Source: Candidatus Saccharimonadota bacterium (lineage in GTDB: Bacteria; Patescibacteriota; Saccharimonadia; Saccharimonadales; Saccharimonadaceae). Taken from it: 64,000 nt of DNA. Shown here one piece after another: positions 5,151-64,000 of the stretch (position 1 is its first letter; every line of letters starts with the position of its first letter). The stretch is taken from positions 71,177-135,176 of the forward strand of contig JAUMZA010000001.1 in the NCBI GenBank assembly GCA_030528355.1, in the 5' to 3' direction. Under the pieces are notes generated by a model. The model was not told the DNA's origin. It saw only the letters and a list, made by a program, of their open reading frames with translations, and ran no database searches. The position numbers and the translations under genes were made by a program.

Positions 5151-5861
5151 ATGGACCCAAATCTACACCTAAAACAAACGCCTGTAACACCAGGTACACC
5201 ACAGCTATGTGCCCCGCGCGAAATCCTCCTCCAATCTGCCATGTTTCGACTTGGTGATGTTGAAGATGAAATCCGTGCTGGCTACGACGTGGTTCGTAAA
5301 CAGCATAAAACAGTTACTATTTTCGGTTCGGCTCGACTACCAGAAACGAGTGAATATTATCGGGCGGCTCGTGCAGTTGGCCGCAAACTCGCCCAAGATA
5401 ATTACACAGTTATTACTGGTGGCGGTGGCGGCATTATGGAAGCCGGTAATCGTGGTGCCTTCGAAGTGGGCGGCAACTCAGTTGGCTTTAATATCCTGCT
5501 GCCACACGAACAAAGCCTTAATGCTTATACCAACGATTCATTCGCCTTTCGTCATTTCGCTCCGCGCAAAATTGTCATGACATTGTATGCCGACGCCTAC
5601 GTCTTCTTCCCTGGCGGCTTCGGCACGCTCGATGAGTTGAGCGAAATCCTTACATTGGTACAAACCGGCAAAACCACCAAAGCACCAATCATTTTGTTTG
5701 GTACGAAGTTTTGGTGTAAGTTTGATGAGTTTGTCCGCACGCAACTATTAGAAGCCGAACACCTTATTTCGCCCGGTGACGAGCACCTTTATACTATTAC
5801 GGATGATATCGAAGAGGTTGTTCGCCTTGTCCAGGAAAATCGCACCTACTGCGAACACTAA
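5151..5861 (+). CDS. LOG-family protein (cytokinin riboside 5'-monophosphate phosphoribohydrolase-like / TIGR00730 Rossmann protein)
   Basis: Motifs TIFGSARL, GGGGGIMEAGNRGA and PGGFGTLDELSE. The ORF-track start at 5133 is TTG; the ATG at 5151 is preceded by AAAGGAAACAGT. Confidence 0.8.
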   Translation: MDPNLHLKQTPVTPGTPQLCAPREILLQSAMFRLGDVEDEIRAGYDVVRKQHKTVTIFGSARLPETSEYYRAARAVGRKLAQDNYTVITGGGGGIMEAGNRGAFEVGGNSVGFNILLPHEQSLNAYTNDSFAFRHFAPRKIVMTLYADAYVFFPGGFGTLDELSEILTLVQTGKTTKAPIILFGTKFWCKFDEFVRTQLLEAEHLISPGDEHLYTITDDIEEVVRLVQENRTYCEH

Positions 5862-7313: not shown

Positions 7314-8224
7314 TACACTACCGCCTTATTTACACTGCCAAATGCAGTTATTTTTTCTTCTACTACCGCTTGTACTGCCGAATACACTTCTGGCATCAGC
7401 TTAACTACCGCATATTCGTGCGGATGTTCAGCTAGCACTTTTTCGAGCGTGGTACGAAACGCATACCGCATATCCGAATTAATGTTGATCTTGCTCACTC
7501 CAATTTTAGCGGCTTCTTCAAAATAATGCAGCGGCGTACCACTGCCGCCATGCAAACTAATGCCACAGTCGATCGCCTGGCGAATTGCTGTTAGTAGCTC
7601 TAGATCAAGCTGCTTTGGCACTGGATATTTACCGTGCAAGTTACCGACCGCTGCTGCAAAAGTATCAATACCAGTCGCCGCAACAAAGGCCTTGGCACCA
7701 GCTGGTGTACTAAAGGTTTTTTTGACCTCTTCGTAATCGATAGCACTAGTATGGACGTTGCTGCTACCGCCAAAATAATGCGGCTCGCTTTCTACCAACG
7801 CACCAGTAAAGGCAGCATACTGCACCACTTCACGGGTTTTTGCAATAATTTCTTCCTCTGAAGCATCGTGGTTTGCCTGGCTAATGTCAATATGGATAAA
7901 TTCAAACCCGGCATCAATGGCACGCTTGCAATTTTCAACTGTTGGGCTATGGTCAAAATTGAGATACATTTCTATTCCATATTCCGCCTTGTAGTTGTCT
8001 ACCATATCACGGATATTTTCCATGCCAATTGCCTGCACTTCACCATCGCTCACCTCAATTAACACTGGTGATTGCAACTTTTGTGCCGCCCGTGCAATCG
8101 CAATGAGTGTTTCTTGATTATCTACATTAAATGCACCTACCGCAAAATGTTGCGAACGAGTACGATGGTACAAATATCGAGCCTTGGTGGTATTATCGCG
8201 AATTTCACGAATCGTTAAACCCAT
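7313..8224 (-). CDS. fba: Class II fructose-1,6-bisphosphate (or tagatose-bisphosphate) aldolase
   Basis: 303 aa with class II FBA motifs (HFDHS region, LHGGSGTP). Confidence 0.85.
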   Translation of the reverse strand: MGLTIREIRDNTTKARYLYHRTRSQHFAVGAFNVDNQETLIAIARAAQKLQSPVLIEVSDGEVQAIGMENIRDMVDNYKAEYGIEMYLNFDHSPTVENCKRAIDAGFEFIHIDISQANHDASEEEIIAKTREVVQYAAFTGALVESEPHYFGGSSNVHTSAIDYEEVKKTFSTPAGAKAFVAATGIDTFAAAVGNLHGKYPVPKQLDLELLTAIRQAIDCGISLHGGSGTPLHYFEEAAKIGVSKININSDMRYAFRTTLEKVLAEHPHEYAVVKLMPEVYSAVQAVVEEKITAFGSVNKAVV

Positions 8225-39157: not shown

Positions 39158-40165
39158 TTAGCGTACCTTTATACTGCCATCAACCTTCGTCAGTAGCGGA
39201 TCAAGGAAGAATTCAACAATGCGGCGTTTGCCGGTGGTAATTTCGGCTGATACACTCATTCCTGGCAGCAACGTAAGCTCTGCCTGCTTTGAACTGGTTG
39301 CATTTTTGAGCTTAATTTTTGCTTTGTATACCAGACCTTTCTTTTCATCATGAATTGCATCCGGGCTAATCGTCTCTACCTCGCCTTCTAGATAGCCGTA
39401 ACGCTGAAACGGATACGTTGCTAGCTTCACCACCACCCGCTGCCCCTGCCCTAGCACGGCACTTTCTGCAGCGGCAATACGTTGCTCAAGCGACCCAAGT
39501 TCATTTTGTAAGCCAATCCTTTCAACGGGATTTGCTTGAGCTAGCTGCGATTCAAGCTCACGTTTGCGTTGCTGCAGCTGCTGCATATTCGCTTCTAGCC
39601 GCTGCTTGGTGTGCTGATTAAATTGCACTTGTTGCTGTTGCTGCGAAATTGCTCCGTGTAGCGTCTGCTGTCGAGCCTGTATCAATCCCTGGCGTGCCTG
39701 AGCAAATTCACGCAATACCGACTTTACTTCCTCTGGCAGTTCTGCCTGCGTAACAATATCATCCGCAACACCACCCACCGCCAGTCGCCGCAAAATATCA
39801 CGCTCCACCCGTGCCACGGCCACGCCTTGCACTAGCGTCATAACCTCCTTTTCGGAGGTGGTTTTATCCAGCTCAATCAACACATCACCTTTCTTCACCT
39901 CCTGGCCTTCACGGGTGTTGATTTTTGTCACCACACCGCTAATGGCCGGCTGAATTATTTTTGTGCTGCCTTCGGTTGAAATCCTACCATTCGCCACTGC
40001 TACAATATCAATCTGCCCAACATACGACCACACGCCAGCCACTACCAACAGTATCGTCACGAGCCAAATCACCATTGCACCACGCGGGGCAGCAGGCGTT
40101 TAGATAATCTCCTCGGCGGCTGGCAAAAATTCATACTGCAACCTGTCTTTCTTTAGCCAGCTCAT
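39158..40165 (-). pseudogene. HlyD-family periplasmic adaptor interrupted by an in-frame TAA (40100..40102)
   Basis: The upstream segment [21 protein letters not shown] (HlyD cytoplasmic N-terminus, SD AGGAGGTGA) is followed by TAA, then TPAAPRGA, then the ORF-track segment 39158..40075 (TM helix, lipoyl/coiled-coil, beta-barrel). All three parts are in the same frame. The ATG overlaps the stop of the upstream ABC fragment by 4 nt. Confidence 0.7.
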
Positions 40166-40701
40166 ACCTCACCTCCTAGCTGCTGCTTGTGTAAATACGC
40201 ATACAGCCCGTTCTTTTTGAGCAGTACCTGCGGCGTGCCGTATTCCACCAACTGGCCACGATCAATCGCCATAATTTTATCGACTGATTTTAATGTCGAA
40301 AGCCGATGGGCAATAATAATCACGGTACGCCCAGCAGTAATATGTGTGAGATTTTGCTGAATGACATTTTCTGATTCATAATCCAGCGCCGACGTAGCTT
40401 CATCAAAAATGAGAATCTTTGGATCGTGTAGCAATGCCCTGGCAATGGCAATACGCTGCTTTTGCCCGCCGCTTAAACCTTCGCCTTTTTCGCCCACCAT
40501 CGTATCGTAACCTTCGGGTAGCTCAGAAATAAATTCATGTGCCCCAGCAATTTTCGCCACCCGCACGATGTCGTCCATACTACTACTTGGCACATGTACG
40601 GCGATATTATCCCGAATCGATGCATTAAACAAAAAGTTTTCTTGCAAGACCACGCCAATTTGCCGTCGCAGCCAGCTTGGATCGGTCGTCGCAATATCCA
40701 C
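40162..40701 (-). pseudogene. Truncated ABC exporter: C-terminal part of the NBD only (Walker A, TMD and any peptidase domain missing)
   Basis: 179 aa carrying the signature [16 protein letters not shown], Walker [13 protein letters not shown] and the H-loop IIIAHRLS, but no Walker A. The gene breaks off at about 40700, where an unrelated recombinase fragment begins on the other strand. Confidence 0.7.
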
Positions 40702-41319
40702 AGCTGGACATATTATCGATGTTCGCGTAAGAACAGGTTCATTAAATGCACCGAGCCGGCAATCCGCGAAAAAGATTTACTACCGCAGATTTCGGCGTTG
40801 CTTGGCGATTATCAGATCTCTGATGAAGCTTACGATTATATATCCAGTAGAATAACGCAAGACGAAAAAGCCGAAAATGTGGACAGTATGTCTATTGTGG
40901 CAAATTTGAAAAATAAAATTGACAGTCTGAACGGTAAACAAAAGATTTTGCTTGATAGCTACCTAGATCAAGACATTGACCGTCAAACTTTTCTAGCTAA
41001 AAAATCGGAGATTTTGAGCGAAAAGAAAAGTTTGGAGGAAAAATTGACGAACCTCACAGCTAACCATAATGCTTGGATCGAACCTATGCGAAAATGGCTA
41101 GAAATAGCAAAATCTATCTGTAATTTGCGTAAAATCGATGACTTTAGCGGGCAAAAAGTTGTTTTGCTTGAAATCTTTGGATCGAACCTCGCAATGCACA
41201 ACAAAACCCTCACCATTCTCAACCACCAAGACAAGTTTGGAGTTGGCTCAAAAACTGCTTTCCGGAAGGGGGCGGAAAGCAGTTTTTTGCCTTTGGCAAG
41301 AATTAAAAAATACAAATAG
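40693..41319 (+). pseudogene. C-terminal fragment of a large serine recombinase (zinc-ribbon remnant plus coiled-coil/DUF4368-like tail); catalytic domain absent
   Basis: [14 protein letters not shown], then ...[20 protein letters not shown]...NLKNKIDSLNGKQKILLDSYLDQDIDRQTFLAKKSEILSEKKSLEEKL. The ORF-track segment 40537..40692 is an antisense artefact over the ABC fragment. Confidence 0.5.
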
Positions 41320-41363: not shown

Positions 41364-41438
41364 TGGCTGGGATGGAGGGATTCGAACCCCCGAATGGCGG
41401 GACCAGAACCCGCTGCCTTACCACTTGGCGACATCCCA
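41364..41438 (-). tRNA. tRNA-Gln (anticodon CUG)
   Basis: 75 nt cloverleaf TGGGATGTCGCCAAGTGGTAAGGCAGCGGGTTCTGGTCCCGCCATTCGGGGGTTCGAATCCCTCCATCCCAGCCA. It has a U1:A72 pair, G73 and an encoded CCA, and is collinear with E. coli tRNA-Gln. Confidence 0.85.
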
Positions 41439-57186: not shown

Positions 57187-57954
57187 CTACTTCTTATGCT
57201 TATCTTGCTGCAGCACACCCATGCCACGCACCGCATCGATCAGCTCAACCGGGAAGAGCATCATGGTTTTTTGTGATGGCTCGGTACTAATGCGTTCAAG
57301 CGTATTGAGCGTTCGCAAATTGAGTGCACCCGGAATGCCCGAAAGAATCGCCGCAGCGTCCGCCAGGGTTTGAGCAGCTAGCTTTTCACCATCAGCATTA
57401 ATGACGTTAGCACGGCGTTCACGCTCGGCTTCGGCTTGCTTGGCCATGGCACGCTTCATGTCGTTTGGTAGCTCAATATTTTGCAGTTTCACACTTTGGA
57501 TATCAACACCCCATTTGTCGGTTTCAGCATCAACAATTTCTTTAATTTGGCTTGAGATATCATCACGCTTGCTAAGCAAATCATCTAAATCAACCTGCCC
57601 GGCCACATCACGCAGCGCCGCCTGAGCAAACTGGCTGGTCGAGATAATATAATTGGCGTTTTCGAGCACCGACTTTGGTGCGTCCACCACCCGAAAATAC
57701 ACCACCGCATCAACGCCCACGGTTACGTTATCTTTAGTGATCACCTCTTGCTTTGGCACGTCGATTGGCGTGGTGCGGATATCTACCTTAATCATACGCT
57801 GAAACACCGGCACCACGATGCGAAGACCTGGCTCACGCACACCCGTAAAACGACCAAGTGTTAGCACAATGCCGCGCTCGTATTGATCCACCACCTTTAG
57901 GCCAGATAGTACAAACATCGCCACGGCAATTATAATTATCATAATAAACTCCAT
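57187..57954 (-). CDS. SPFH/band-7 (stomatin/prohibitin-like) protein
   Basis: N-terminal TM helix, then an SPFH domain with a coiled-coil Ala/Glu-rich segment. Confidence 0.85.
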   Translation of the reverse strand: MEFIMIIIIAVAMFVLSGLKVVDQYERGIVLTLGRFTGVREPGLRIVVPVFQRMIKVDIRTTPIDVPKQEVITKDNVTVGVDAVVYFRVVDAPKSVLENANYIISTSQFAQAALRDVAGQVDLDDLLSKRDDISSQIKEIVDAETDKWGVDIQSVKLQNIELPNDMKRAMAKQAEAERERRANVINADGEKLAAQTLADAAAILSGIPGALNLRTLNTLERISTEPSQKTMMLFPVELIDAVRGMGVLQQDKHKK

Positions 57955-58109: not shown

Positions 58110-58182
58110 GCTCCTGTGGGGCGGATTCCCCGCTAGGCGTTCTAAGCCAAAGCTCCTGGTTCGACTCCAGGCAGGAGTGCCA
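58110..58182 (+). tRNA. Degenerate tRNA-like element (closest to tRNA-Arg, anticodon UCU) with intact T-arm, acceptor stem and CCA but a non-canonical D-arm and a mismatched anticodon stem; possible pseudo-tRNA
   Basis: GCTCCTGTGGGGCGGATTCCCCGCTAGGCGTTCTAAGCCAAAGCTCCTGGTTCGACTCCAGGCAGGAGTGCCA. The T-arm is CCTGG-TTCGACT-CCAGG; the acceptor pairs 7/7 with G1:U72; the D-stem is GGGG/CCCC with a 6-nt loop; the anticodon stem has an A:A mismatch. Confidence 0.4.
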
Positions 58183-58724
58183 TATGACTTTAGCTCAGCC
58201 TTGACAATTCGTGGGTAATTTGCTATATTGTTAGTACGATTCGTGGACTGTAATTGCCCCGTTTCGGACGTATATCCACTGGCAGCACTCGCTGTATTTG
58301 GACGGCCAGATGACGAATCATTAAAGTAGGTAACCACATTTAGTGCGTTGCCTTTTTTAATTACCTCGATAATAGCACTACACCGCCCTAATCGCTACAC
58401 CTCCAAGCTACCTGCACTGCAAAATAAAAAGTACACCACCTTGTGATATACTTCAATGAATCAGATTATGGTGTTGATATACACCAAAGCTTGAACCTAT
58501 TTCGCAAATACACGAAATAAACGCTACGATACAAGCCAACCCCAATGCCTACGAACAAACTCACATACCCACCCCACCAAAAACCCTTAAAATTATCTTT
58601 TTGAAATCCACCCTGCTCTATTTCTCCTTAACTGAAGTGGCGGATTTTCCGACAGTTTACCCGACACAGGCGGCAGCACCGTTGAGTCTTAAATAGGGCG
58701 GTCATAGGTCAAGTAGAAAAGTGA

Positions 58725-58730
58725 TATAAT
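58725..58730 (+). promoter_or_regulatory. Extended -10 (TGaTATAAT) 8 nt upstream of the ATPase ATG
   Basis: TGATATAAT at 58722..58730 and ATG at 58739. Confidence 0.4.
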
Positions 58731-58738
58731 ACACATCG

Positions 58739-60177
58739 ATGTATATTTCACAAATAAAACTTCATAATTTCAAGGGATTTAACGACGATCGCACAATCAA
58801 TTTTGACACTGGTATAAATTTCCTTGTAGGTGACAATAACTGCGGTAAGTCGACGGTATTTGAAGCTATTGATTTTATACGAGCCAAAAAGACCAGAGAC
58901 GAAGTAATAACGAAAACAAAGCTTGAGAGTGATGATTTTGTCTCAGTAGAAATAGAGCTCAAGGGCGATGACCTCGAAAAGCTTGTCGGAACCGACGCCT
59001 TGAAAAAGTACAAGCCCTATCTTATTGACACTGACGGATCTAAAAGCCTACGAATCATGCGCTCTAGTGAAGAGTCAAAAATAGCACAGAACAAAAGAGA
59101 GAAAACGCTAGGAATTGGTAATGTTCGAATATTTAACAACGAATCAAGCCAGTTCGAAAATCCAACAGGAATAGACACCGCAATAAACGCTTTATTCGAC
59201 GCACAGTTTGTTTGGGCCGACACAAACTCTGGTGATGTAGCAGATTTTTCAAAAACTAAGATATGTGGAAAAATTATCAACACTATAATTAGTGATAAGA
59301 TTTCTGATAGTTGGAATAATTTCAAAAAGTCACACAAAGACACTTTTGATAAGATTGCCGACAACTTAAGACCCATAGAAGAACAGATAAAAAGTAAACT
59401 ATCAGATCAGTATGGAGATACTGAGGTGAAGTTTAACTTTACGTTGCCAGAGATTACTGACTTTCTAAAATCAGGTCATATAGATTTGTCGGATAACGGT
59501 ATTCAGACGACGAGTTCAGAAAAAGGAACTGGCATGCAAAGAGCATTGGCGTTGTCACTAATTCAAGTTTATGCAGATATAACTTCTAGTGGAAGAGGAG
59601 ATATATCGAAGCCGATTATGTTTTTATCGATGAGCCCGAAACATTCTTGCACCCACGGGCACAGAATAGGCTCCTTGATTCACTTAAAAAGATAGCTAGC
59701 CAGTCACAGGTTTTTATTGTTACCCACTCACCATATCTTTTGAAAAAATACAAGAAAGACACCCACTCGTTGAATGTATTCTCAAAAAATGGCCTGTTCA
59801 ATAAAGTCGAAGAGAGTGACGCATTTGATTTGTTTGGATCATCAAGCCCAACTTGGGGCGAAATAAACTACTATGCTTTTGGTGTTATTTCTGTTGAGTT
59901 TCACAATGAACTCTACGGCTTTGTACAGACTAAGGCTATTCTTGAAAATGAAAAGAACTACTTTGAAGATAGCTTCGAACAGTATTTAGTCGGCAAGGGA
60001 GTAGCACAAGATAAGGCGTATGTTCGACTGAAGAAAGATGGAACAACCCAAAATCAAACAAGAACGCTGCCTACTTTGATTAGAAATACGATACATCACC
60101 CAGAAAACACGAACAACGGTTTTACTGATGAAGATCTGAAAAGCTCCATTGAGTTGTTAATTCCTCTCGCAAAATAG
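58739..60177 (+). pseudogene. OLD/AAA_21-family ABC-type ATPase with short C-terminal Toprim-like tail (putative anti-phage nuclease), interrupted by a frameshift in a T5 run (59621..59625)
   Basis: Walker A GDNNCGKST, ABC-like signature SSEKGTGMQRALALS and Walker B IMF[F]IDEPE. Frame 1 reads KPIMFLSMSPKH... and stops; frame 3 reads ...YVFIDEPETFLHPRAQNRLLDSLKK...VFIVTHSPYLL (H-loop). Adding one T to the T5 run restores IMFFIDEPE. The C-terminal 130 aa carry a V-E-F...E segment and a D-E-D segment compatible with a minimal Toprim. Confidence 0.65.
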
Positions 60178-60202
60178 TTGTTTATTTTTGGAAAATAAAC
60201 AA
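60178..60202. terminator. AT-rich perfect palindrome between convergent ATPase and restriction-modification operon
   Basis: TTGTTTATTTT-TGG-AAAATAAACAA. Confidence 0.4.
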
Positions 60203-60943
60203 ATGTTCGTGCATTATTAGTAAGAAATTGCTTTCTTGCGATTTTTTAACCCAAAAACCAGTTGCTTTGCAATTAAACTGTCGTTTGATGATATCTTCTT
60301 TGAGACGGAAACCAGTTTTCATAAACCGATCCATAACTTTATATGCCATCGGCTGATACATTTTGTTACGGCGCGTGTCACCGATAAGAATTGCACAATA
60401 TTTACCTTTTTTGAGGACTCGATACAGCTCTTTTGCAACTTTTTCCATTTCGTCGGCAAACTTGTCAATATCATGAATATTAGACAGATCGTTATCAAGC
60501 GTGCCCTCGCTGTATTTGATAATATCTGCATAGGGCGGGTGTGTCAAAATAAAGTCTATACTTTCGTCATTTGCCTTACTTAAATCACGAGCGTCACGCT
60601 TTACGACTTTTTGCCAAGCGTCGTTTTCCACCTCAAAATCAAGAGAGCTTCTCGTTCGCTCTAGTGCCTTATCATTTACGTCAGAACAAATGATATGACG
60701 GTTAAGTATTTTTGCTTCAATTGCGGTTGTGCCTCCACCGATCATCGGGTCAAGCAAAATGTCACCCTCGTTTGAATATCGCAAAATTAAGTTACGAACA
60801 ACCTCTGGCGACCAATTGCCACGCCAGTCCGATTTATGCGTTGCCCAATTACCGCGCCTAGGAAAAGCCCATACAGTCGTACATTCTAACTCAAACTCAT
60901 CCGGGTGTAACTTGTTTGCTTTTGCCTTATTTTTAGCTACCAC
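60182..60943 (-). CDS. DNA methyltransferase, N6A/N4C family (PF01555-like; DpnA-like second methylase)
   Basis: 253 aa with motif I HKSDWRGNWSPEVVRNLILRYSNEGDILLDPMIGGGTT and motif IV ILTHPPYADII. It is the last gene of the three-gene operon and overlaps the endonuclease gene by 7 nt. Confidence 0.7.
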   Translation of the reverse strand: MVAKNKAKANKLHPDEFELECTTVWAFPRRGNWATHKSDWRGNWSPEVVRNLILRYSNEGDILLDPMIGGGTTAIEAKILNRHIICSDVNDKALERTRSSLDFEVENDAWQKVVKRDARDLSKANDESIDFILTHPPYADIIKYSEGTLDNDLSNIHDIDKFADEMEKVAKELYRVLKKGKYCAILIGDTRRNKMYQPMAYKVMDRFMKTGFRLKEDIIKRQFNCKATGFWVKKSQESNFLLIMHEHLFIFQK

Positions 60944-61794
60944 GATAACTCGCTTAGCACTCCGTCTTCAAGCATACTCAGATTAAACACATAGTCATTG
61001 TGGCTATACGTTTCTTCAAGCGGTCGTCTTGCCGTATACCAACCAAGCCCGTCAGTAACCCACACAAACTCAATGTTCTGTGCTTTTAGCTCATCGTAAA
61101 GATTGCGAAACTCACCACAAACAGCCTTTAATTTTGAGCCGCCGCCATTATAAAAGTTAGTTTCAAACAATTTAATCTTTCCACTCTGTGGATTGTACAC
61201 GGCAAAATCAAAACTCCGCTCTGATTTGTCCACCTTAATATCAAAGCCCCATTTTGATTTAATTTTACTAGGACGAGCCTGTGACATGCACTCAAAACCA
61301 TTCCGCCTACAGAACTCCCCTAGAAATAAACCAACGATTTCTTCCATCAAAGTGCCACCACGATTTTTGCGACCATTACTATCAAGTCCAACTTCGACAC
61401 CAATAACGTAATCTACGAGATTTTTTATACCATCTCTCTGGAATAATTTCGCAAGTCCCGACTTATCTATAAACTCAAAGTACTTATCGGCATCATTGTT
61501 TTTACCAGAAAAATCATAAAATTCCGATTCTTTTGATACCTTGTCGTAAATTTCTAGATTATTTTCTCGTACAGCAAGCAATGCAGGCAGCACCTTTACG
61601 ATGTCTGGGTTAGACTCGTAAAGCTTATGGAAATCTCCTCGTAAATCGTCTTTACCGAGTAGATAATTCAATTTATTTAGGGCTATCTCTAAATCGGCAC
61701 TATTGGCAAAGACTTTATTCCAATTTACGAAATAATCCCAAGTTTTGATTGAACTTTTGAATGTTGATACTAAATCGTTAAAATCTCTTTTCAT
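60937..61794 (-). CDS. Type II restriction endonuclease, DpnII/MboI-like (predicted GATC)
   Basis: 285 aa, sandwiched between a Dam-family and an N6_N4-family methylase, with size and order as in DpnII/MboI-type GATC systems. Family call rests on context plus remembered family resemblance, not on a search. Confidence 0.6.
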   Translation of the reverse strand: MKRDFNDLVSTFKSSIKTWDYFVNWNKVFANSADLEIALNKLNYLLGKDDLRGDFHKLYESNPDIVKVLPALLAVRENNLEIYDKVSKESEFYDFSGKNNDADKYFEFIDKSGLAKLFQRDGIKNLVDYVIGVEVGLDSNGRKNRGGTLMEEIVGLFLGEFCRRNGFECMSQARPSKIKSKWGFDIKVDKSERSFDFAVYNPQSGKIKLFETNFYNGGGSKLKAVCGEFRNLYDELKAQNIEFVWVTDGLGWYTARRPLEETYSHNDYVFNLSMLEDGVLSELSW

Positions 61795-61797
61795 AAC

Positions 61798-62757
61798 CTA
61801 ATAATTTGTTACCAATACTTCCGTTATTTTGCCTCGTCCAGTGCCTTTTGAATTTATGGCACGAGCAGCAGCTATTTTATTTATTATGATCCCATCAATC
61901 CCTGAGTATAACTCGTTAATAAACGGCGTGTCTGAATTAGAGAGCATAACAAAACACCCCTTTTCGTGCAGTTTTACAAATGCATCACGAAGTTCCGTTT
62001 GGTCTTTTTCTAAAAACCCTTCTGCCGTGTAAGAAGTGAACGACGACGTAGCGTTTATTGGGTAATAAGGCGGATCGAAGTATATAAAGTCACCACTTTG
62101 TGCGGCTTCTAAGACTTTTTTGTAATCCTGATGTGCAATTATCACGTCCTGCAAAGCACTTGATACTCGTCGCAGATTGTCTTCGTCACAGATAACAGGG
62201 TTGCTATATCGACCAAAAGGTACATTGAATTGGCCACTCTTATTTACTCGATAAAGGCCGTTGAAGCCTGTACGATTTAGGAATATGAATCGAGATGCGA
62301 TCTCTATGTCTGACAAATCCTCAACCTTTTTAGCACGAACTTTAAGGTAATATCCTTTGTCGTAAATATGTTTCTGTAATAACCCTATAAGCTCCTCAAC
62401 ATTATTTTTGATTACGTTATAGGTAATTACGAGCTCGTTGTTTAAGTCTGAAAGCTTAGCATTTTTCGGCAATAAATCAAAGAAGACAGCACCGCCGCCA
62501 ACAAAAGGCTCGTGGTAAGTATTTATCGTTGGATTGAATACCTCCGGTGGATACAGGCCAAGCTCACGGAACTGCTTAAGGAGTTGGCGCTTACCGCCGA
62601 CCCATTTTACAAATGGCCTAGGCTTTGCATTTATGAGTTTTTGCACATCTTCAAGAGTACCATCTTCTCCAACGGATTGGAAAAGTTGTTGTGCATAGAT
62701 AAAATTAACATTAAAAGCACTGGCGATATTTGCAGTAGTAAGACTACCTATAGACAT
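61798..62757 (-). CDS. Dam-family (D12 class) N6-adenine DNA methyltransferase (DpnM-like)
   Basis: PFVKWVGGKRQLLKQF (Dam motif I region), FIYFDPPYYPINATSSFTSYTAEGF (DPPY motif IV with the Dam-specific SxTAxFTxY), ATG at 62757 with GGAGGGG SD and an upstream TGcTATAAT extended -10. The ORF-track start at 62769 is TTG. Confidence 0.85.
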   Translation of the reverse strand: MSIGSLTTANIASAFNVNFIYAQQLFQSVGEDGTLEDVQKLINAKPRPFVKWVGGKRQLLKQFRELGLYPPEVFNPTINTYHEPFVGGGAVFFDLLPKNAKLSDLNNELVITYNVIKNNVEELIGLLQKHIYDKGYYLKVRAKKVEDLSDIEIASRFIFLNRTGFNGLYRVNKSGQFNVPFGRYSNPVICDEDNLRRVSSALQDVIIAHQDYKKVLEAAQSGDFIYFDPPYYPINATSSFTSYTAEGFLEKDQTELRDAFVKLHEKGCFVMLSNSDTPFINELYSGIDGIIINKIAAARAINSKGTGRGKITEVLVTNY

Positions 62758-63073
62758 AAACCCCTCCAATCCCTATATTCTCTATAAGGATTATAGCATA
62801 CTTTCAATGACCCAACTTCGTAAAGTTGAAAAACGGAGCCAAAATACCGAACCTCTTCGACTAAAAAGAAATTCGGCGGAAAAGTTAAAAATAAGGCAAA
62901 AGGTTTCTGACGGAACGAGCAGGTGCGTACACCCGAAGACACTGGAGCTGAACTGCACGACTCAGTTTTTACGCTCGCAATAGGTTCGAGCTTTGGTATA
63001 CATTGCCATCATTTCGAAACTAAAACAGAAATAGTCGCCTTACCTGGCGACCAAATCTCGGAAAATTTCATTT

Positions 63074-63149
63074 TGGTGCGGGTTAGGAGACTCTAACTCC
63101 TGGCCTCTTCCATGGCAAGGAAGCGCTCTAACAACTGAGCTAAACCCGC
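63074..63149 (-). tRNA. tRNA-Gly (anticodon GCC) with unusual U19-A56 tertiary pair and A73 discriminator
   Basis: GCGGGTTTAGCTCAGTTGTTAGAGCGCTTCCTTGCCATGGAAGAGGCCAGGAGTTAGAGTCTCCTAACCCGCACCA. All four stems are perfect; the T-loop is TTAGAGT and the D-loop AGTTGTTA. Confidence 0.75.
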
Positions 63150-63398
63150 ATAAAACAATCACTATCGATTGATATTTATCATTATAGCACCGCAGCATCA
63201 CAATAGCAATACCTTATTTCGCACCCAAATACCACTACACCTAGCCTCATAGTAAAGACAAGAGCAGCACAATACCATTTACATTGATGCTTATATTGCA
63301 ATTTGCTAAAATAAATGTCATAATATAATTACTCGTACAGCCACGCCTGTCGAGTGACCCTTGACAAGCAATTTCTATCTTCAGAGGATGTGATATCA

Positions 63399-64000
63399 AT
63401 GCAAGAAGATCGTCGTTCCATAGATGAGCTCCTTCATGTCAGAGTCCGAGAGAGCGTACTCGCAACCGTCATCGACATAGTCATGCCACCCGATCCGAAG
63501 CCTATGTTTATGTGGCCGCACTTTGTTGCTACCACGCACCGGCGATATTTTAAGGGGTATTATTTACACCTTATTGCAGCATCGCTACTCATCATTACGG
63601 TGGGACTGGTTATACTTTTGCATCGCATACCACTTTTACAAGAATCAGTATTATCGGTGCTTACTGCTATACTTGAGCAAATATTGCCGTCATCATGGGC
63701 TACGGCATTTGCCATCTTGTACGGTGTGACTATTGTGGTACTGTTTGGCAGCTTTATACATACCACTCCATTACAAAGGGCTCTTGATGAGATACCGATC
63801 CAAACATCAGCGTTGTACCGCTTTTTACTGTGGGCAGCCCTGCGCGAGGAGCAACTGTTTCGCTCTGGCAGCGAACGTTGGTCTTGGTTGCAGAAAATTC
63901 AAGCTAGCCTGGTATTTGGTGTGGCACACATTGTGAACATTTGGTATAGCTTTGCTGCCGGCATTGCATTAAGTGTGACAGGGCTTGGCTTTTTGCTAGT
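63399..64000 (+). CDS. CPBP-family intramembrane metalloprotease (CAAX protease / Abi-like), 5' partial in window (continues past the end)
   Basis: ATG at 63399 with AGAGGA SD. TM helices plus the CPBP motifs REEQLFR (EExxxR) and VFGVAHIVN (FxxxH). Absent from the ORF track because no stop lies within the window. Confidence 0.7.
   Translation, partial: MQEDRRSIDELLHVRVRESVLATVIDIVMPPDPKPMFMWPHFVATTHRRYFKGYYLHLIAASLLIITVGLVILLHRIPLLQESVLSVLTAILEQILPSSWATAFAILYGVTIVVLFGSFIHTTPLQRALDEIPIQTSALYRFLLWAALREEQLFRSGSERWSWLQKIQASLVFGVAHIVNIWYSFAAGIALSVTGLGFLL

What the first reader, a model, noticed from the sequence alone, without database searches (positions are those of the whole stretch)
58110..63149. 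5 kb defence island bracketed by two converging tRNA 3' ends: OLD-type ATPase-nuclease convergent with a DpnII-like methylase-endonuclease-methylase system
A degenerate Arg-like tRNA on the plus strand (CCA at 58182) and tRNA-Gly on the minus strand (CCA at 63074) both point into a segment that holds only defence genes plus a 556-nt ORF-free spacer. The defence genes are a frameshifted OLD/AAA_21 ATPase with a Toprim-like tail, and a Dam-like methylase, DpnII/MboI-like endonuclease and N6_N4 methylase operon with its own extended -10 promoter. No integrase is present. The inverted tRNA arrangement is not the usual direct-repeat att structure, so the insertion or retention mechanism is unclear. 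Just outside, the island is followed by a CPBP/Abi-like protease.
Basis: partly seen in the sequence, partly recalled or inferred. Interest (0 to 1): 0.7.

Follow-up and report, generated by a model that had tools for sequence, protein, structure and literature searches.

The report
Decayed restriction-defence island at tRNA-Gly
In a Saccharibacteria genome, the stretch downstream of tRNA-Gly holds an apparently intact GATC restriction-modification cassette and a frameshifted, restriction-linked ATPase that carries a probable RNase tail (not an OLD nuclease), and it looks like the recombinase-less remnant of a mobile island that a 99%-identical sister strain has already partly deleted.

Summary
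The coordinates and gene calls hold. tRNA-Gly(GCC) is solid. The "Arg" tRNA is marginal (Rfam 27.4 bits, below the cut-off of 29). The three restriction-modification (RM) genes are full-length DpnM-like, R.DpnII and N6_N4 methylase genes with their own extended -10 promoter. The ATPase is broken by a T6-to-T5 frameshift in Walker B.

The "OLD with Toprim tail" label is wrong. The repaired 479-aa protein belongs to a large, highly conserved family. Its head is an OLD/AAA_15-type ABC ATPase. Its tail is a 135-aa domain not covered by Pfam, with an invariant Rx4H motif and HEPN-like fold matches. In 61 of 73 related loci this gene lies within 5 kb of type I, II, IIG, III or IV RM genes, usually as HsdM-X-HsdS-HsdR. 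It therefore resembles PrrC in architecture and context.

The island genes have foreign composition (GC 0.38-0.40 against 0.479±0.026 for core genes). A sister strain lacks 59081-62844 through a microhomology deletion.

The same 2.6-kb RM cassette sits next to tRNA-Gly(GCC) in other Saccharibacteria. In one of them a large serine recombinase lies between the tRNA and the cassette. Degenerate inverted repeats shared with such elements flank the window's cargo.

Verdict: a decaying, recombinase-less island made of known kinds of parts, plus one under-described protein family.

The parts
58110..58182 (+). tRNA-Arg(UCU)-like gene, marginal; its 3' CCA points into the island
   Evidence: ARAGORN calls it. 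Rfam tRNA scores 27.4 bits against a cut-off of 29. It has a 3-bp D stem, an A.A mismatch and G32. No promoter-like site was found upstream. It shares 48/73 identities with canonical Saccharibacteria tRNA-Arg(tct).
58201..58362 (+). Near-consensus promoter (TTGACA-17-TATATT with TG, 58201-58229) followed by a structured region that ends in a hairpin plus U-run (about 58320-58362); candidate small transcript
   Evidence: Promoter scan gives 11/12 matches. Fold z-score is -2.4. No Rfam family matches. Function unknown.
58468..58504 (.). Left arm of a 37-nt inverted repeat (core TACACCAAAGCTTGAACCTATT, 58480-58501)
   Evidence: the repeat finder I1. The 25-nt degenerate pattern occurs only at these two places, and in none of 100 shuffles. 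Related single copies lie just downstream of tRNA-Gly in L016 and in L184.
58573..58655 (.). Degenerate left copy of boundary repeat 'IR-a', inverted relative to 62830-62915
   Evidence: Local alignment to the L184 and L188 copies scores 34 and 31. The best of 300 shuffles scored 27. Similarity to the window's own right copy is not significant.
58722..58730 (+). Extended -10 (TGATATAAT) 8 nt before the ATG of the ATPase gene; probably a leaderless mRNA
   Evidence: Sequence read. The region 58717-58758 is conserved with L188 210-250.
58739..60177 (+). Pseudogene of 'X': an ABC ATPase (about 58739-59760) plus a C-terminal Rx4H/HEPN-like domain (59761-60174); frameshift in the T5 run at 59621-59625
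   Evidence: Intact homologues are 478-488 aa.
60173..60207 (.). A/T-rich hairpin between the two convergent stop codons; possible bidirectional terminator
   Evidence: the repeat finder I14.
60182..60943 (-). N6_N4 DNA methylase, third gene of the RM operon (DpnA/second-methylase type)
   Evidence: Pfam N6_N4_Mtase 2.8e-25. PADLOC MTase_II 1.6e-90 over positions 5-249 of 249.
60937..61794 (-). R.DpnII-family restriction endonuclease, full length
   Evidence: Pfam DpnII 2.5e-94 over positions 1-277 of 278. Homologues at 80-90% identity are common in Saccharibacteria.
61798..62757 (-). DpnM-like D12 N6-adenine methylase (319 aa from the ATG at 62757; the ORF call from TTG at 62769 is 4 codons longer)
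   Evidence: TIGR00571 dam 6.1e-85. 2dpm 1.5e-74. GGAGG ribosome-binding site seen. 319-aa homologues.
62790..62798 (-). Extended -10 promoter of the RM operon; also the outer limit of the conserved 2.6-kb cassette (60186-62798)
   Evidence: Sequence. Homology to L176-L183 and L187 ends here.
62830..62915 (.). Right copy of boundary repeat 'IR-a', containing a 13-bp-stem hairpin (62846-62877)
   Evidence: Aligns to L188 1-87 and 5596-5682, to L184 2235-2345 and to L001 2795-2880. The hairpin is listed.
62907..63019 (.). 113 bp specific to this strain (replaced in L001/L002 by about 1.2 kb carrying a split Peptidase_S66 gene); contains the right arm of the 37-nt inverted repeat (62976-63012)
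63032..63053 (-). Terminator hairpin of tRNA-Gly
   Evidence: Conserved with L001 (100%) and with L176/L184.
63074..63149 (-). tRNA-Gly(GCC), with its promoter at 63181-63209; the anchor of the hotspot
   Evidence: ARAGORN and Rfam at 68.6 bits. Promoter scores 10/12 with TG.
59081..62844 (.). Segment absent from the sister strain: the 3' three-quarters of X plus the whole RM operon and its promoter
   Evidence: L001 and L002 junction ...GAGTCAAAA|TATCGAACC..., with CAAAA(T)A microhomology at both window endpoints.

Best explanation
The segment downstream of tRNA-Gly(GCC) is the decayed, recombinase-less remnant of a mobile defence island in a Candidatus Saccharibacteria genome. It has two cargo modules.

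(1) A self-contained 2.6-kb type II RM cassette: promoter, DpnM-like methylase, R.DpnII, then a second N6_N4 methylase. It most likely methylates and restricts GATC and appears intact.

(2) Gene X, an ABC ATPase of the OLD/AAA_15 clade fused to a C-terminal Rx4H (HEPN-like) domain. Across its family X is physically linked to RM systems of every type. By analogy with PrrC, it is inferred to be a latent RNase. It would be held in check by, or monitor, the neighbouring restriction complex, and would abort infection when phage neutralises restriction. In this genome X is inactivated by a one-base deletion in Walker B.

The island probably arrived at the tRNA-Gly 3' end on a large-serine-recombinase element bounded by inverted repeats, as still seen in related loci. 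It then lost the recombinase. It is now being eroded: a 99%-identical sister strain has removed most of X and the whole RM operon in one microhomology deletion.

Shown: gene identities, the frameshift, composition, the strain deletion, recurrence of the cassette at tRNA-Gly, and the family-wide RM linkage.
Inferred: GATC specificity, RNase activity and the guard role of X, serine-recombinase delivery, and delivery of X and RM as one unit.
For: Identity of the parts:
- RM genes.
- Promoter, ribosome-binding site and start.
- Frameshift and repaired Walker B.
- Intact X homologues of 478-488 aa at 65-88% identity, more than 1000 hits.

X is not OLD:
- Old, PtuA, GajA and AriA models and PDB chains match only residues up to about 364.
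- No Pfam family covers the tail in the window protein or in 78 diverse homologues.
- The tail family has 575 clusters at 50% identity, nearly always C-terminal to the ATPase.
- The only invariant tail residues across 78 diverse members are R108 and H113, which form Rx4H. H48, E50, Y52, G53, H112, P114, E115 and N116 are near-invariant.

RM linkage of X:
- HsdM-X-HsdS-HsdR operons.
- Type III Mod-Res-X, EcoRI methylase-X-DUF2130-GmrSD, Eco57I/ResIII-X and X-GmrSD.
- X, tandem D12 methylase, AlwI and a serine recombinase.
- Tally: 61 of 73 evaluable loci have an RM gene within 5 kb.
- The PrrC precedent is described in PMC3710099 and 10.1101/2024.01.29.577857.

Island status:
- Gene GC is 0.375-0.402 against 0.479±0.026. 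AGA codons are 8.2 per 1000 against 2.3 per 1000.
- The sister-strain deletion is seen in two assemblies.

Hotspot and recombinase:
- The cassette is 85-86% identical at the DNA level beside tRNA-Gly(GCC) in L176-L183, in inverted orientation.
- L184 reads tRNA-Gly, serine recombinase (overlapping the tRNA 3' end), then the RM cassette in the window's orientation. Homology extends past the promoter to 62894.
- L047 also has a serine recombinase overlapping the tRNA-Gly 3' end.
- In L001 the shared sequence stops 9 nt into the tRNA-Gly 3' end, and a HEPN_Cthe2314 gene follows.
- IR-a copies flank the cargo in L188 (87 nt, 100% identical) and, in degenerate form, in the window.
- A truncated serine recombinase lies beside tRNA-Gln in the same window.
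Against: - No activity data exist for any member of the X family.
- In the window X is convergent with the RM operon rather than embedded in it. The same RM cassette also occurs without X (L176, L184, L187), so the two may have arrived separately and be unrelated in function here.
- No recombinase, no clear att pair and no direct repeat of the tRNA-Gly 3' end exists in the window.
- The left IR-a copy is detectable only through the L184 and L188 copies.
- The 22-nt inverted motif is unexplained. It is not part of a palindrome in L016.
- The window, L085 and L174 may come from the same sample, so the frameshift is not independently replicated.
- Species-level synteny around SPFH is rearranged, so an empty site was not found.
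Confidence: 0.62

Rival explanations
1. First reader's version. The ATPase is an OLD-family ATPase-nuclease with a (degenerate) Toprim tail, and the block is a recent insertion between two tRNAs by an unknown route.
For: - The best PADLOC hit is Old at 3.8e-54.
- Several sources name homologues 'ATP-dependent endonuclease of OLD family'.
- Composition is foreign.
- The block varies between strains.
Against: - The Old model aligns only at positions 2-339 of 578.
- The protein is about 100 aa shorter than OLD.
- No Toprim hit appears in Pfam, NCBIfam, PADLOC or PDB.
- The tail is a conserved helical domain with an invariant Rx4H motif, and its fold hits are HEPN proteins.
- The RM cassette sits at tRNA-Gly in other species too.
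Confidence: 0.07
2. X and the RM cassette are independent tenants of a tRNA-Gly hotspot. They arrived in separate events, so their adjacency in this genome has no functional meaning, and no single serine-recombinase element ever carried both.
For: - The cassette occurs alone, with sharp promoter-to-stop boundaries, in L176-L183 and L187. It occurs with a recombinase but without X in L184.
- X and the RM operon are convergent, not co-transcribed.
- Varied, partly defence-like genes follow tRNA-Gly(GCC) in other Saccharibacteria.
Against: - X is linked to RM genes in 84% of evaluable loci.
- L188 carries X, a type II RM system and a serine recombinase, with perfect inverted repeats around X plus RM.
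- The window has IR-a copies on both sides of X plus RM.
- X and the RM genes have the same low GC.
Confidence: 0.25
3. The locus is old and vertically inherited in Saccharibacteria rather than a mobile island. Its low GC reflects the usual A+T bias of RM genes, and the differences between genomes are ordinary rearrangements.
For: - The same cassette lies next to the same tRNA in several lineages.
- The whole window shows about two-fold depletion of GATC (126 observed against 238 expected). This fits long exposure to GATC restriction.
Against: - The cassette is found in both orientations, with different far flanks (alpha-amylase, SPFH side, serine recombinase). In L187 it lies beside tRNA-Leu in a different neighbourhood.
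- R.DpnII is 89-90% identical between genomes, whereas SPFH is only 72-78% identical to its listed best matches among the GTDB representative genomes.
- The cassette is present or absent between 99%-identical strains.
- Recombinases are adjacent in L184, L047 and L188.
Confidence: 0.15
4. The C-terminal domain of X is not a nuclease. It would instead be a regulatory or docking domain, for example one that binds restriction subunits or DNA, so X would be an accessory ATPase of RM systems rather than an abortive-infection effector.
For: - Some HEPN-fold proteins are non-catalytic.
- X is often translationally coupled inside hsd operons.
Against: - Strict invariance of R and H at Rx4H spacing across members that are 32-61% identical, plus a second conserved H/E motif (FHNELYG), is what a catalytic site looks like.
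- X works with unrelated RM types (I, II, IIG, III, IV). A specific docking role is harder to reconcile with that.
Confidence: 0.18
5. The frameshift is a sequencing or assembly error, or a switchable homopolymer, and X is functional in this organism.
For: - The lesion is a single base in a homopolymer, T5 where T6 is needed.
- The rest of the gene is undamaged and 88% identical to an intact homologue.
Against: - A separate Logan assembly of SRR24915846 has the same T5.
- Five or six T's are too few for efficient slippage (general knowledge).
- The sister strain has independently destroyed X, which suggests relaxed selection.
Confidence: 0.12

Closest known systems
DpnII (S. pneumoniae), MboI and LlaDCHI GATC restriction-modification systems
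   Same: All three have a DpnM-type D12 methylase, a PF04556 endonuclease and a second N6_N4 methylase. The window's methylase matches DpnM (2dpm) at 1.5e-74. In DpnII the second methylase, DpnA, methylates single-stranded DNA (PMC3573125, PMC3812788).
   Different: The gene order here is M-R-M. DpnII is M-M-R. From my recollection of Ueno et al. 1993, not checked here, MboI is M-R-M. Specificity and single-strand methylation are untested. The host is a Saccharibacteria epibiont. The cassette travels as a 2.6-kb promoter-to-stop unit next to tRNA genes.
PrrC anticodon nuclease of the EcoprrI type Ic locus (and RloC)
   Same: N-terminal ABC ATPase, a C-terminal HEPN-type domain with a conserved Arg and His, and a gene embedded between hsdM/hsdS and hsdR (PMC3710099).
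   Different: The ATPase head is of the AAA_15/AAA_21/OLD-like type, not AAA_13. The window protein gives no AAA_13 hit at E<=1, and only 8 of 78 homologues hit it weakly. The tail shows no detectable sequence similarity to named HEPN families. X is linked to all RM types, not only type Ic. Its substrate and trigger are unknown.
OLD-family nucleases (P2 Old, classes 1 and 2), GajA, and AriA/AriB of PARIS
   Same: The ABC ATPase head is closest to these families: PADLOC Old 3.8e-54, AriA 9.4e-35 and GajA about 1e-24. All have a defence context.
   Different: There is no Toprim domain, fused or adjacent. The total length is about 480 aa against about 580 aa. The effector domain is helical with an Rx4H motif.
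ABC-HEPN proteins of the ERFG_01251 type (Anantharaman et al. 2013, PMC3710099)
   Same: That family is described as an ABC ATPase fused to a 'classical' HEPN related to HEPNs associated with minimal nucleotidyltransferases (MNT). X's fold hits include several such HEPNs: HI0074, 8xdj, 5yep, TTHA0636 and AF0298.
   Different: ERFG_01251 is reported with an extra N-terminal domain and sporadic CRISPR linkage. X has no such N-terminal domain and is linked to RM systems.
tRNA-targeted genomic islands moved by large serine recombinases, and defence islands in general
   Same: The location is at a tRNA 3' end, composition is foreign, and presence varies between strains. In related loci (L184, L047, L188) and at tRNA-Gln in this window, large serine recombinases converge on tRNA 3' ends.
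   Different: The island in the window has no recombinase and no clean att pair. In the related elements the recombinase gene sits between near-perfect inverted repeats of 135-137 nt whose outer ends mimic the tRNA 3' end. I could not match this layout to a described element type.

Membership tests
OLD-family nuclease | N-terminal ABC ATPase with Walker A, signature motif, Walker B and H-loop | tested here: met
   PADLOC Old 3.8e-54 over residues 1-345. Pfam AAA_15 2.5e-35 and AAA_21 1.9e-24. The motifs GDNNCGKS, EKGTGMQRAL, FFIDEPE (after repair) and THSP are visible.
OLD-family nuclease | C-terminal Toprim nuclease domain | tested here: not met
   No Toprim hit in Pfam (E<=1), NCBIfam, PADLOC or PDB sequences. 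All matches stop by about residue 364. The AF2 model of the tail is a helical bundle with a beta hairpin.
HEPN superfamily | Conserved Rx4-6H motif | tested here: met
   R108 and H113 of the tail (IRNxIHH) are the only invariant tail residues in 78 members that are 32-61% identical. They are also invariant in the closer sets.
HEPN superfamily | All-alpha HEPN fold | tested here: inconclusive
HEPN superfamily | Metal-independent RNase activity | not testable with these tools
   Needs biochemistry on an intact homologue.
PrrC/RloC anticodon nucleases | PrrC-type ABC ATPase head (Pfam AAA_13, from my knowledge of where PrrC and RloC are filed) | tested here: not met
   AAA_13 is absent from the window protein's hits at E<=1. 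Only 8 of 78 homologues hit it weakly, best 9.7e-5.
PrrC/RloC anticodon nucleases | Gene embedded in a type I hsd operon | tested here: met
   Met for the family: HsdM-X-HsdS-HsdR in 27 or more loci. Not met in the window itself, where X is convergent with a type II operon.
PrrC/RloC anticodon nucleases | Cleavage of the tRNA anticodon loop, released by an anti-restriction factor | not testable with these tools
   No experimental data exist for this family.
DpnII/MboI-type type II RM system | PF04556 endonuclease, full length | tested here: met
   2.5e-94 over positions 1-277 of 278. PADLOC REase_II 2e-96.
DpnII/MboI-type type II RM system | DpnM/Dam-class methylase plus a second N6_N4 methylase in the same operon | tested here: met
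   TIGR00571 6.1e-85, 2dpm 1.5e-74 and N6_N4_Mtase 2.8e-25. Reading frames overlap or abut on one strand behind one promoter.
DpnII/MboI-type type II RM system | GATC recognition, m6A protection | not testable with these tools
   Inferred from family membership. The window's GATC count is 126 against 238 expected, which is compatible with this but not specific.
Bacterial tRNA (the Arg-like gene) | Score above the Rfam RF00005 gathering threshold, and a canonical cloverleaf | tested here: not met
   27.4 bits against 29. It has a 3-bp D stem, an A.A mismatch and G32. tRNA-Gly scores 68.6 bits.
Integrative element of a large serine recombinase | Recombinase gene within the element | tested here: not met
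   None lies in 58110-63149. One is present in the related loci L184, L188 and L047. A fragment lies at 40537-41319 of the window.
Integrative element of a large serine recombinase | Defined att sites or boundary repeats at both ends, next to the tRNA target | tested here: inconclusive
   IR-a copies lie at 58573-58655 (degenerate) and 62830-62915. A 37-nt inverted repeat lies at 58468-58504 and 62976-63012. No recombination data exist, and no empty site was found.

The most novel reading that the evidence does not exclude
X may represent a large family, unnamed as far as I could find, of restriction 'guards'. It has 575 clusters at 50% identity and members 65-88% identical across Patescibacteria and beyond. 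Each member is an OLD-like ABC ATPase fused to a new HEPN-type RNase domain. The family pairs with type I, II, IIG, III and IV restriction systems and would fire when restriction is disabled, which would be a general version of the PrrC principle. In Patescibacteria these X-plus-RM pairs ride on serine-recombinase modules. The cargo and the recombinase gene are each bracketed by near-perfect inverted repeats that mimic a tRNA 3' end. Whole defence cassettes might therefore be inverted (switched) as well as integrated at tRNA-Gly.
Probability: 0.3. Interest if true: 0.65.

Novelty: new variant of a known kind. Interest (0 to 1): 0.42.

Why it matters
The island itself is ordinary: a known type of RM system at a tRNA hotspot, in decay. 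Two results are worth more.

The first is a correction. Proteins that sources name 'OLD family endonuclease' in many Patescibacteria and other genomes have no Toprim domain. They form a distinct, highly conserved ABC-ATPase-Rx4H family that is almost always wired to restriction systems. If it is an RNase guard, the PrrC logic extends from one E. coli type Ic locus to all RM classes and to the ultra-small CPR (Candidate Phyla Radiation) bacteria, whose phage defence is poorly known. It also becomes testable with a single gene.

The second is that tRNA-Gly(GCC) appears to be a recurrent landing site for defence cargo in Saccharibacteria. The associated serine-recombinase modules have an unusual inverted-repeat layout. 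This is relevant to how these reduced genomes exchange and shed immunity genes. Here, gain and loss are visible between strains that are 99% identical.

Tried and rejected
- Rfam on the whole segment and on the spacer at E<=10 found only the two tRNAs and noise.
- A search for a direct repeat of the tRNA-Gly 3' end inside the window, as a classical att pair, found none.
- I tested whether the window's 113 bp (62907-63019) is a collapsed remnant of the 1.2-kb Peptidase_S66 segment of L001. There is no homology.
- Viral-contig scans found nothing for the 3' half of the Arg-like tRNA. The 19-nt motif gave one 20-nt chance match with no extension.
- I tested the idea that the 22-nt inverted motif is two halves of a palindromic attB. 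In L016 the motif stands alone and is not palindromic, so the idea is unsupported.
- I tested whether the Arg-like tRNA derives from the tRNA-Phe or tRNA-Gly(CCC) that neighbour SPFH in other species. It is no closer to them than to unrelated tRNAs, and is closest (48/73) to tRNA-Arg(tct).
- I looked for IR-a beside the 'naked' cassettes of L176, L181 and L187. It is absent.
- Foldseek against the PDB gave no significant hit for the tail. The afdb50 library was unavailable.
- A Pfam scan of 78 diverse homologues found no named tail domain.
- Pfam on the truncated CPBP-like ORF gave no hit.
- Species-level synteny did not yield an empty site, because gene order around SPFH is rearranged between species.
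- An exact look-up of the N6_N4 methylase found nothing on record.

Full report
**Source and setting.** The window comes from a Candidatus Saccharibacteria (TM7) genome. The SPFH protein at 57187-57954 is 72-78% identical to its listed best Saccharibacteria matches among the GTDB representative genomes. The window's R.DpnII is identical to a protein that NCBI lists from a Saccharibacteria MAG contig of 135 kb.

**Observation check.**
- ARAGORN finds tRNA-Arg(tct) at 58110-58182 (+) and tRNA-Gly(gcc) at 63074-63149 (-). Their 3' ends face each other across 4.9 kb.
- tRNA-Gly is unambiguous. It scores 68.6 bits in Rfam, has a near-consensus promoter at 63181-63209 and a terminator at 63032-63053.
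- The Arg-like gene is marginal. It scores 27.4 bits, below the family cut-off of 29. It has a 3-bp D stem, an A.A mismatch in the anticodon stem, G at position 32 and no promoter-like site upstream.
- It also differs from the canonical Saccharibacteria tRNA-Arg(tct) seen in two other loci, sharing 48/73 identities.
- The 556-nt spacer, the split ATPase, the three RM genes and the lack of any recombinase in the interval are all as described.
- The RM promoter is TGCTATAAT at 62790-62798 on the minus strand. GGAGG and an ATG at 62757 follow it. This gives the 319-aa methylase that gene callers report in relatives.

**Composition.**
- The five island ORFs have GC 0.375-0.402. The 55 other ORFs of the window average 0.479±0.026, with a minimum of 0.415.
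- GC3 is 0.36-0.39 in the island against 0.461±0.045 elsewhere.
- AGA codons are 3.6-fold enriched in the island.

**The RM module.**
- 61798-62757 is a DpnM orthologue (2dpm 1.5e-74; TIGR00571 6.1e-85).
- 60937-61794 is a full-length PF04556 endonuclease (2.5e-94).
- 60182-60943 is an N6_N4 methylase that matches a PADLOC type II methylase model end to end.
- All three frames are open and abut or overlap, so the system looks functional.
- GATC specificity is inferred from the family. DpnA-type second methylases act on single-stranded DNA in pneumococcus (PMC3573125).
- GATC is about two-fold depleted across the whole window, 126 observed against 238 expected.

**The ATPase ("X") is not an OLD nuclease.**
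- The frameshift is a T5 run at 59621-59625. One extra T restores ...KPIMFFIDEPETFLHPRAQ..., a textbook Walker B, and yields a 479-aa protein.
- More than 1000 database proteins match it. The best 120 are 65-88% identical over the full length and are 463-504 aa long, mostly 478-488 aa. The single-ORF form is therefore the norm.
- OLD, GajA, PtuA and AriA profiles, and all solved structures, match only the ATPase part, up to about residue 364.
- The last 135 residues match no Pfam family, either in the window protein or in 78 diverse homologues.
- A search of 1.8 billion cluster representatives with the tail alone found 575 clusters. In nearly all of them the tail follows a 340-aa ATPase.
- In an alignment of 78 members that are 32-61% identical in the tail, the only invariant tail residues are R108 and H113, within IRNxIHHPEN. 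This is an Rx4H motif. A second near-invariant block is FHNELYG.
- AlphaFold models have pLDDT 84.9 and then 93.6 with the deeper alignment. They show a helical bundle with a beta hairpin.
- Foldseek found nothing. I therefore call the tail a probable HEPN-type domain. The motif criterion is met and the fold criterion is inconclusive.

**X is a restriction-linked gene.**
- The first three context look-ups put it inside HsdM-X-HsdS-HsdR operons twice, and next to a large serine recombinase once. Pfam confirmed HsdS in both operons.
- I then fetched 80 metagenome loci and classified the neighbours locally and with Pfam.
- Of 73 loci with usable flanks, 61 have a recognised RM gene within 5 kb. 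Type I accounts for 32, type III (Mod-Res-X) for 13-14, Eco57I/ResIII fusions for 4, GmrSD-type for 5 and type II for 6.
- The closest intact homologue with context (80% identity, L188) reads X, tandem D12 methylase, AlwI-family endonuclease, large serine recombinase.
- This is the genomic signature of PrrC, the ABC-HEPN anticodon nuclease held latent by the EcoprrI restriction complex (PMC3710099; 10.1101/2024.01.29.577857).
- X is not a PrrC family member, because its ATPase head is of the AAA_15/OLD type and not AAA_13.
- The guard mechanism is inference by analogy. No member has been tested, as far as my four full-text searches show.

**Strain comparison.**
- Four Logan contigs carry the identical SPFH protein.
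- L001 and L002 come from two samples. They are 98.5-99.2% identical to the window from 51542 (L001) or 56744 (L002) up to 59080, then jump to 62845.
- The junction is ...GAGTCAAAA|TATCGAACC.... Both window endpoints carry CAAAA(T)A.
- Because the window side continues as a normal X gene, this is a 3764-bp deletion in the sister lineage. It removes three-quarters of X, all three RM genes and their promoter in one step.
- Between 62906 and 63020 the sister strain has about 1.2 kb with a split Peptidase_S66 gene in place of the window's 113 bp. The two segments share no homology.
- Identity with the window then resumes for 63 nt and stops 9 nt into the tRNA-Gly 3' end. Unrelated DNA with a HEPN_Cthe2314 gene follows. 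This marks the tRNA-Gly 3' end as a recombination point.

**The cassette elsewhere.**
- R.DpnII homologues at 80-90% identity are abundant in Saccharibacteria.
- In L176-L183 the stretch 60186-62798, exactly from the stop codon to the -10 element, is 85-86% identical at the DNA level. It lies 285 nt from the 3' end of tRNA-Gly(GCC). It is inverted relative to the window, has no X, and has alpha-amylase on the far side.
- In L187 the cassette (80% identical) lies 285 nt from the 3' end of tRNA-Leu(taa).
- In L184 (77% identical) the order is tRNA-Phe, tRNA-Gly(GCC), a 518-aa large serine recombinase whose 3' end overlaps the tRNA, then the cassette in the window's orientation. Homology runs past the promoter to window position 62894.
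- Cassette GC is 0.40 in every host. In four of the five loci the flanks are 0.47-0.51. In L184 they are 0.417, so there is no contrast there.
- L047 also has a serine recombinase overlapping the tRNA-Gly 3' end. In L005, L006 and L009 the DNA downstream of tRNA-Gly(GCC) has lower GC than the locus as a whole, and L009 and L030 carry defence-like ATPase genes there.

**Boundary repeats.**
- An element of about 85 nt at 62830-62915 contains a 13-bp-stem hairpin. It recurs in L184 between the recombinase and the cassette. In L188 it recurs as a perfect inverted pair of at least 87 nt around X plus RM.
- The window's spacer holds a degenerate copy in the opposite orientation at about 58573-58655. 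It is detectable against the L184 and L188 copies, and none of 300 shuffles scored as high.
- The window therefore reads IR-a, X, RM, IR-a. This is the L188 layout without the recombinase.
- A separate 37-nt inverted repeat at 58468-58504 and 62976-63012 is not due to chance. Relatives of its core motif lie just downstream of tRNA-Gly in L016 and L184. It remains unexplained.
- In both L184 and L188 the recombinase gene sits between inverted repeats of 135-137 nt that are 98-100% identical. The outer ends of these repeats read GCACCA plus a terminator hairpin.
- The window also has a C-terminal fragment of such a recombinase at 40537-41319, which is 45% identical to residues 300-471 of the L184 enzyme. 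Its end lies 45 nt from the tRNA-Gln 3' end.

**Conclusion.**
- The finding is real, and its reading as a defence island is right.
- The ATPase label is wrong, and the delivery mechanism can be narrowed.
- The best account is a tRNA-Gly-anchored island of the serine-recombinase type. It carries an RM cassette plus an RM-linked ABC-HEPN-like gene. It has lost its recombinase, its X gene is dead, and it is being deleted in the population.
- Main uncertainties: whether X and the RM cassette arrived together, whether the tail of X is a true HEPN RNase, what the Arg-like tRNA is, and what the inverted repeats do.

Noticed in passing
window 40537-41319 (+), next to tRNA-Gln 41364-41438 (-): A 260-aa ORF is the C-terminal fragment of a large serine recombinase. 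It is 45% identical to residues 300-471 of the L184 enzyme (E 5e-47) and lacks the catalytic N-terminal half. It ends 45 nt from the tRNA-Gln 3' end, abuts a truncated ABC-transporter ATPase ORF (40162-40701), and has the lowest GC (0.415) among the window's other ORFs. This is a second relic of a tRNA-targeted element.
   Followed up: partly
whole window: Short palindromes are depleted relative to a Markov expectation: GATC 126 against 238, GCGC 75 against 243, CGCG 45 against 169, ACGT 141 against 193. This suggests long exposure to several restriction specificities.
   Followed up: no
window 58201-58362 (+): A near-consensus promoter (TTGACA-17-TATATT with TG) lies right after the Arg-like tRNA. 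It is followed by a structured stretch of about 125 nt that ends in a strong hairpin plus U-run. This is a candidate small RNA or leader. No Rfam family matches, and the fold z-score is -2.4.
   Followed up: partly
window 58722-58741: The -10 element of gene X ends 8 nt before its ATG and there is no Shine-Dalgarno sequence. The mRNA would be leaderless. Homologues inside hsd operons are translationally coupled instead.
   Followed up: no
L184 317-453 / 2005-2141; L188 5770-5904 / 7480-7614 and 1-87 / 5596-5682: Large serine recombinase genes are bracketed by inverted repeats of 135-137 nt that are 98-100% identical. The outer ends of the repeats mimic a tRNA 3' end (GCACCA) plus a terminator, and the inner part encodes the recombinase C-terminus. 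L188 also has perfect inverted repeats of at least 87 nt around the X-plus-RM cargo. These come from two independent assemblies and may be invertible modules.
   Followed up: partly
L001 1-2700 and L002 (sister strain): Beyond a 9-nt remnant of the tRNA-Gly 3' end, the sister strain carries a 406-aa HEPN_Cthe2314 protein. Between the tRNA-Gly terminator and IR-a it carries a Peptidase_S66 gene split into 133- and 213-aa ORFs. The hotspot therefore holds different cargo in a 99%-identical strain.
   Followed up: partly
L187 4999-7984: The same RM cassette (80% DNA identity) lies 285 nt from the 3' end of tRNA-Leu(taa) in a different neighbourhood. This is the same distance and the same convergent geometry as beside tRNA-Gly in L176.
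   Followed up: no
window 60919-60938 and 62883-62902: A 20-nt, 95% complementary match links the first codons of the N6_N4 methylase gene to the IR-a element upstream of the operon. The sequence is A-rich and the match may be chance.
   Followed up: no
L094/L096, L149/L153/L157: In some loci X sits with DUF2130 and GmrSD-type (type IV) enzymes rather than with a methylase-endonuclease pair. Its partners therefore include modification-dependent restriction systems.
   Followed up: no
window 63400-64000 (+): The ORF after tRNA-Gly shows EEQLFR and FGVAH motifs reminiscent of CPBP proteases. It is cut by the window end and gave no Pfam hit at E<=0.1.
   Followed up: partly
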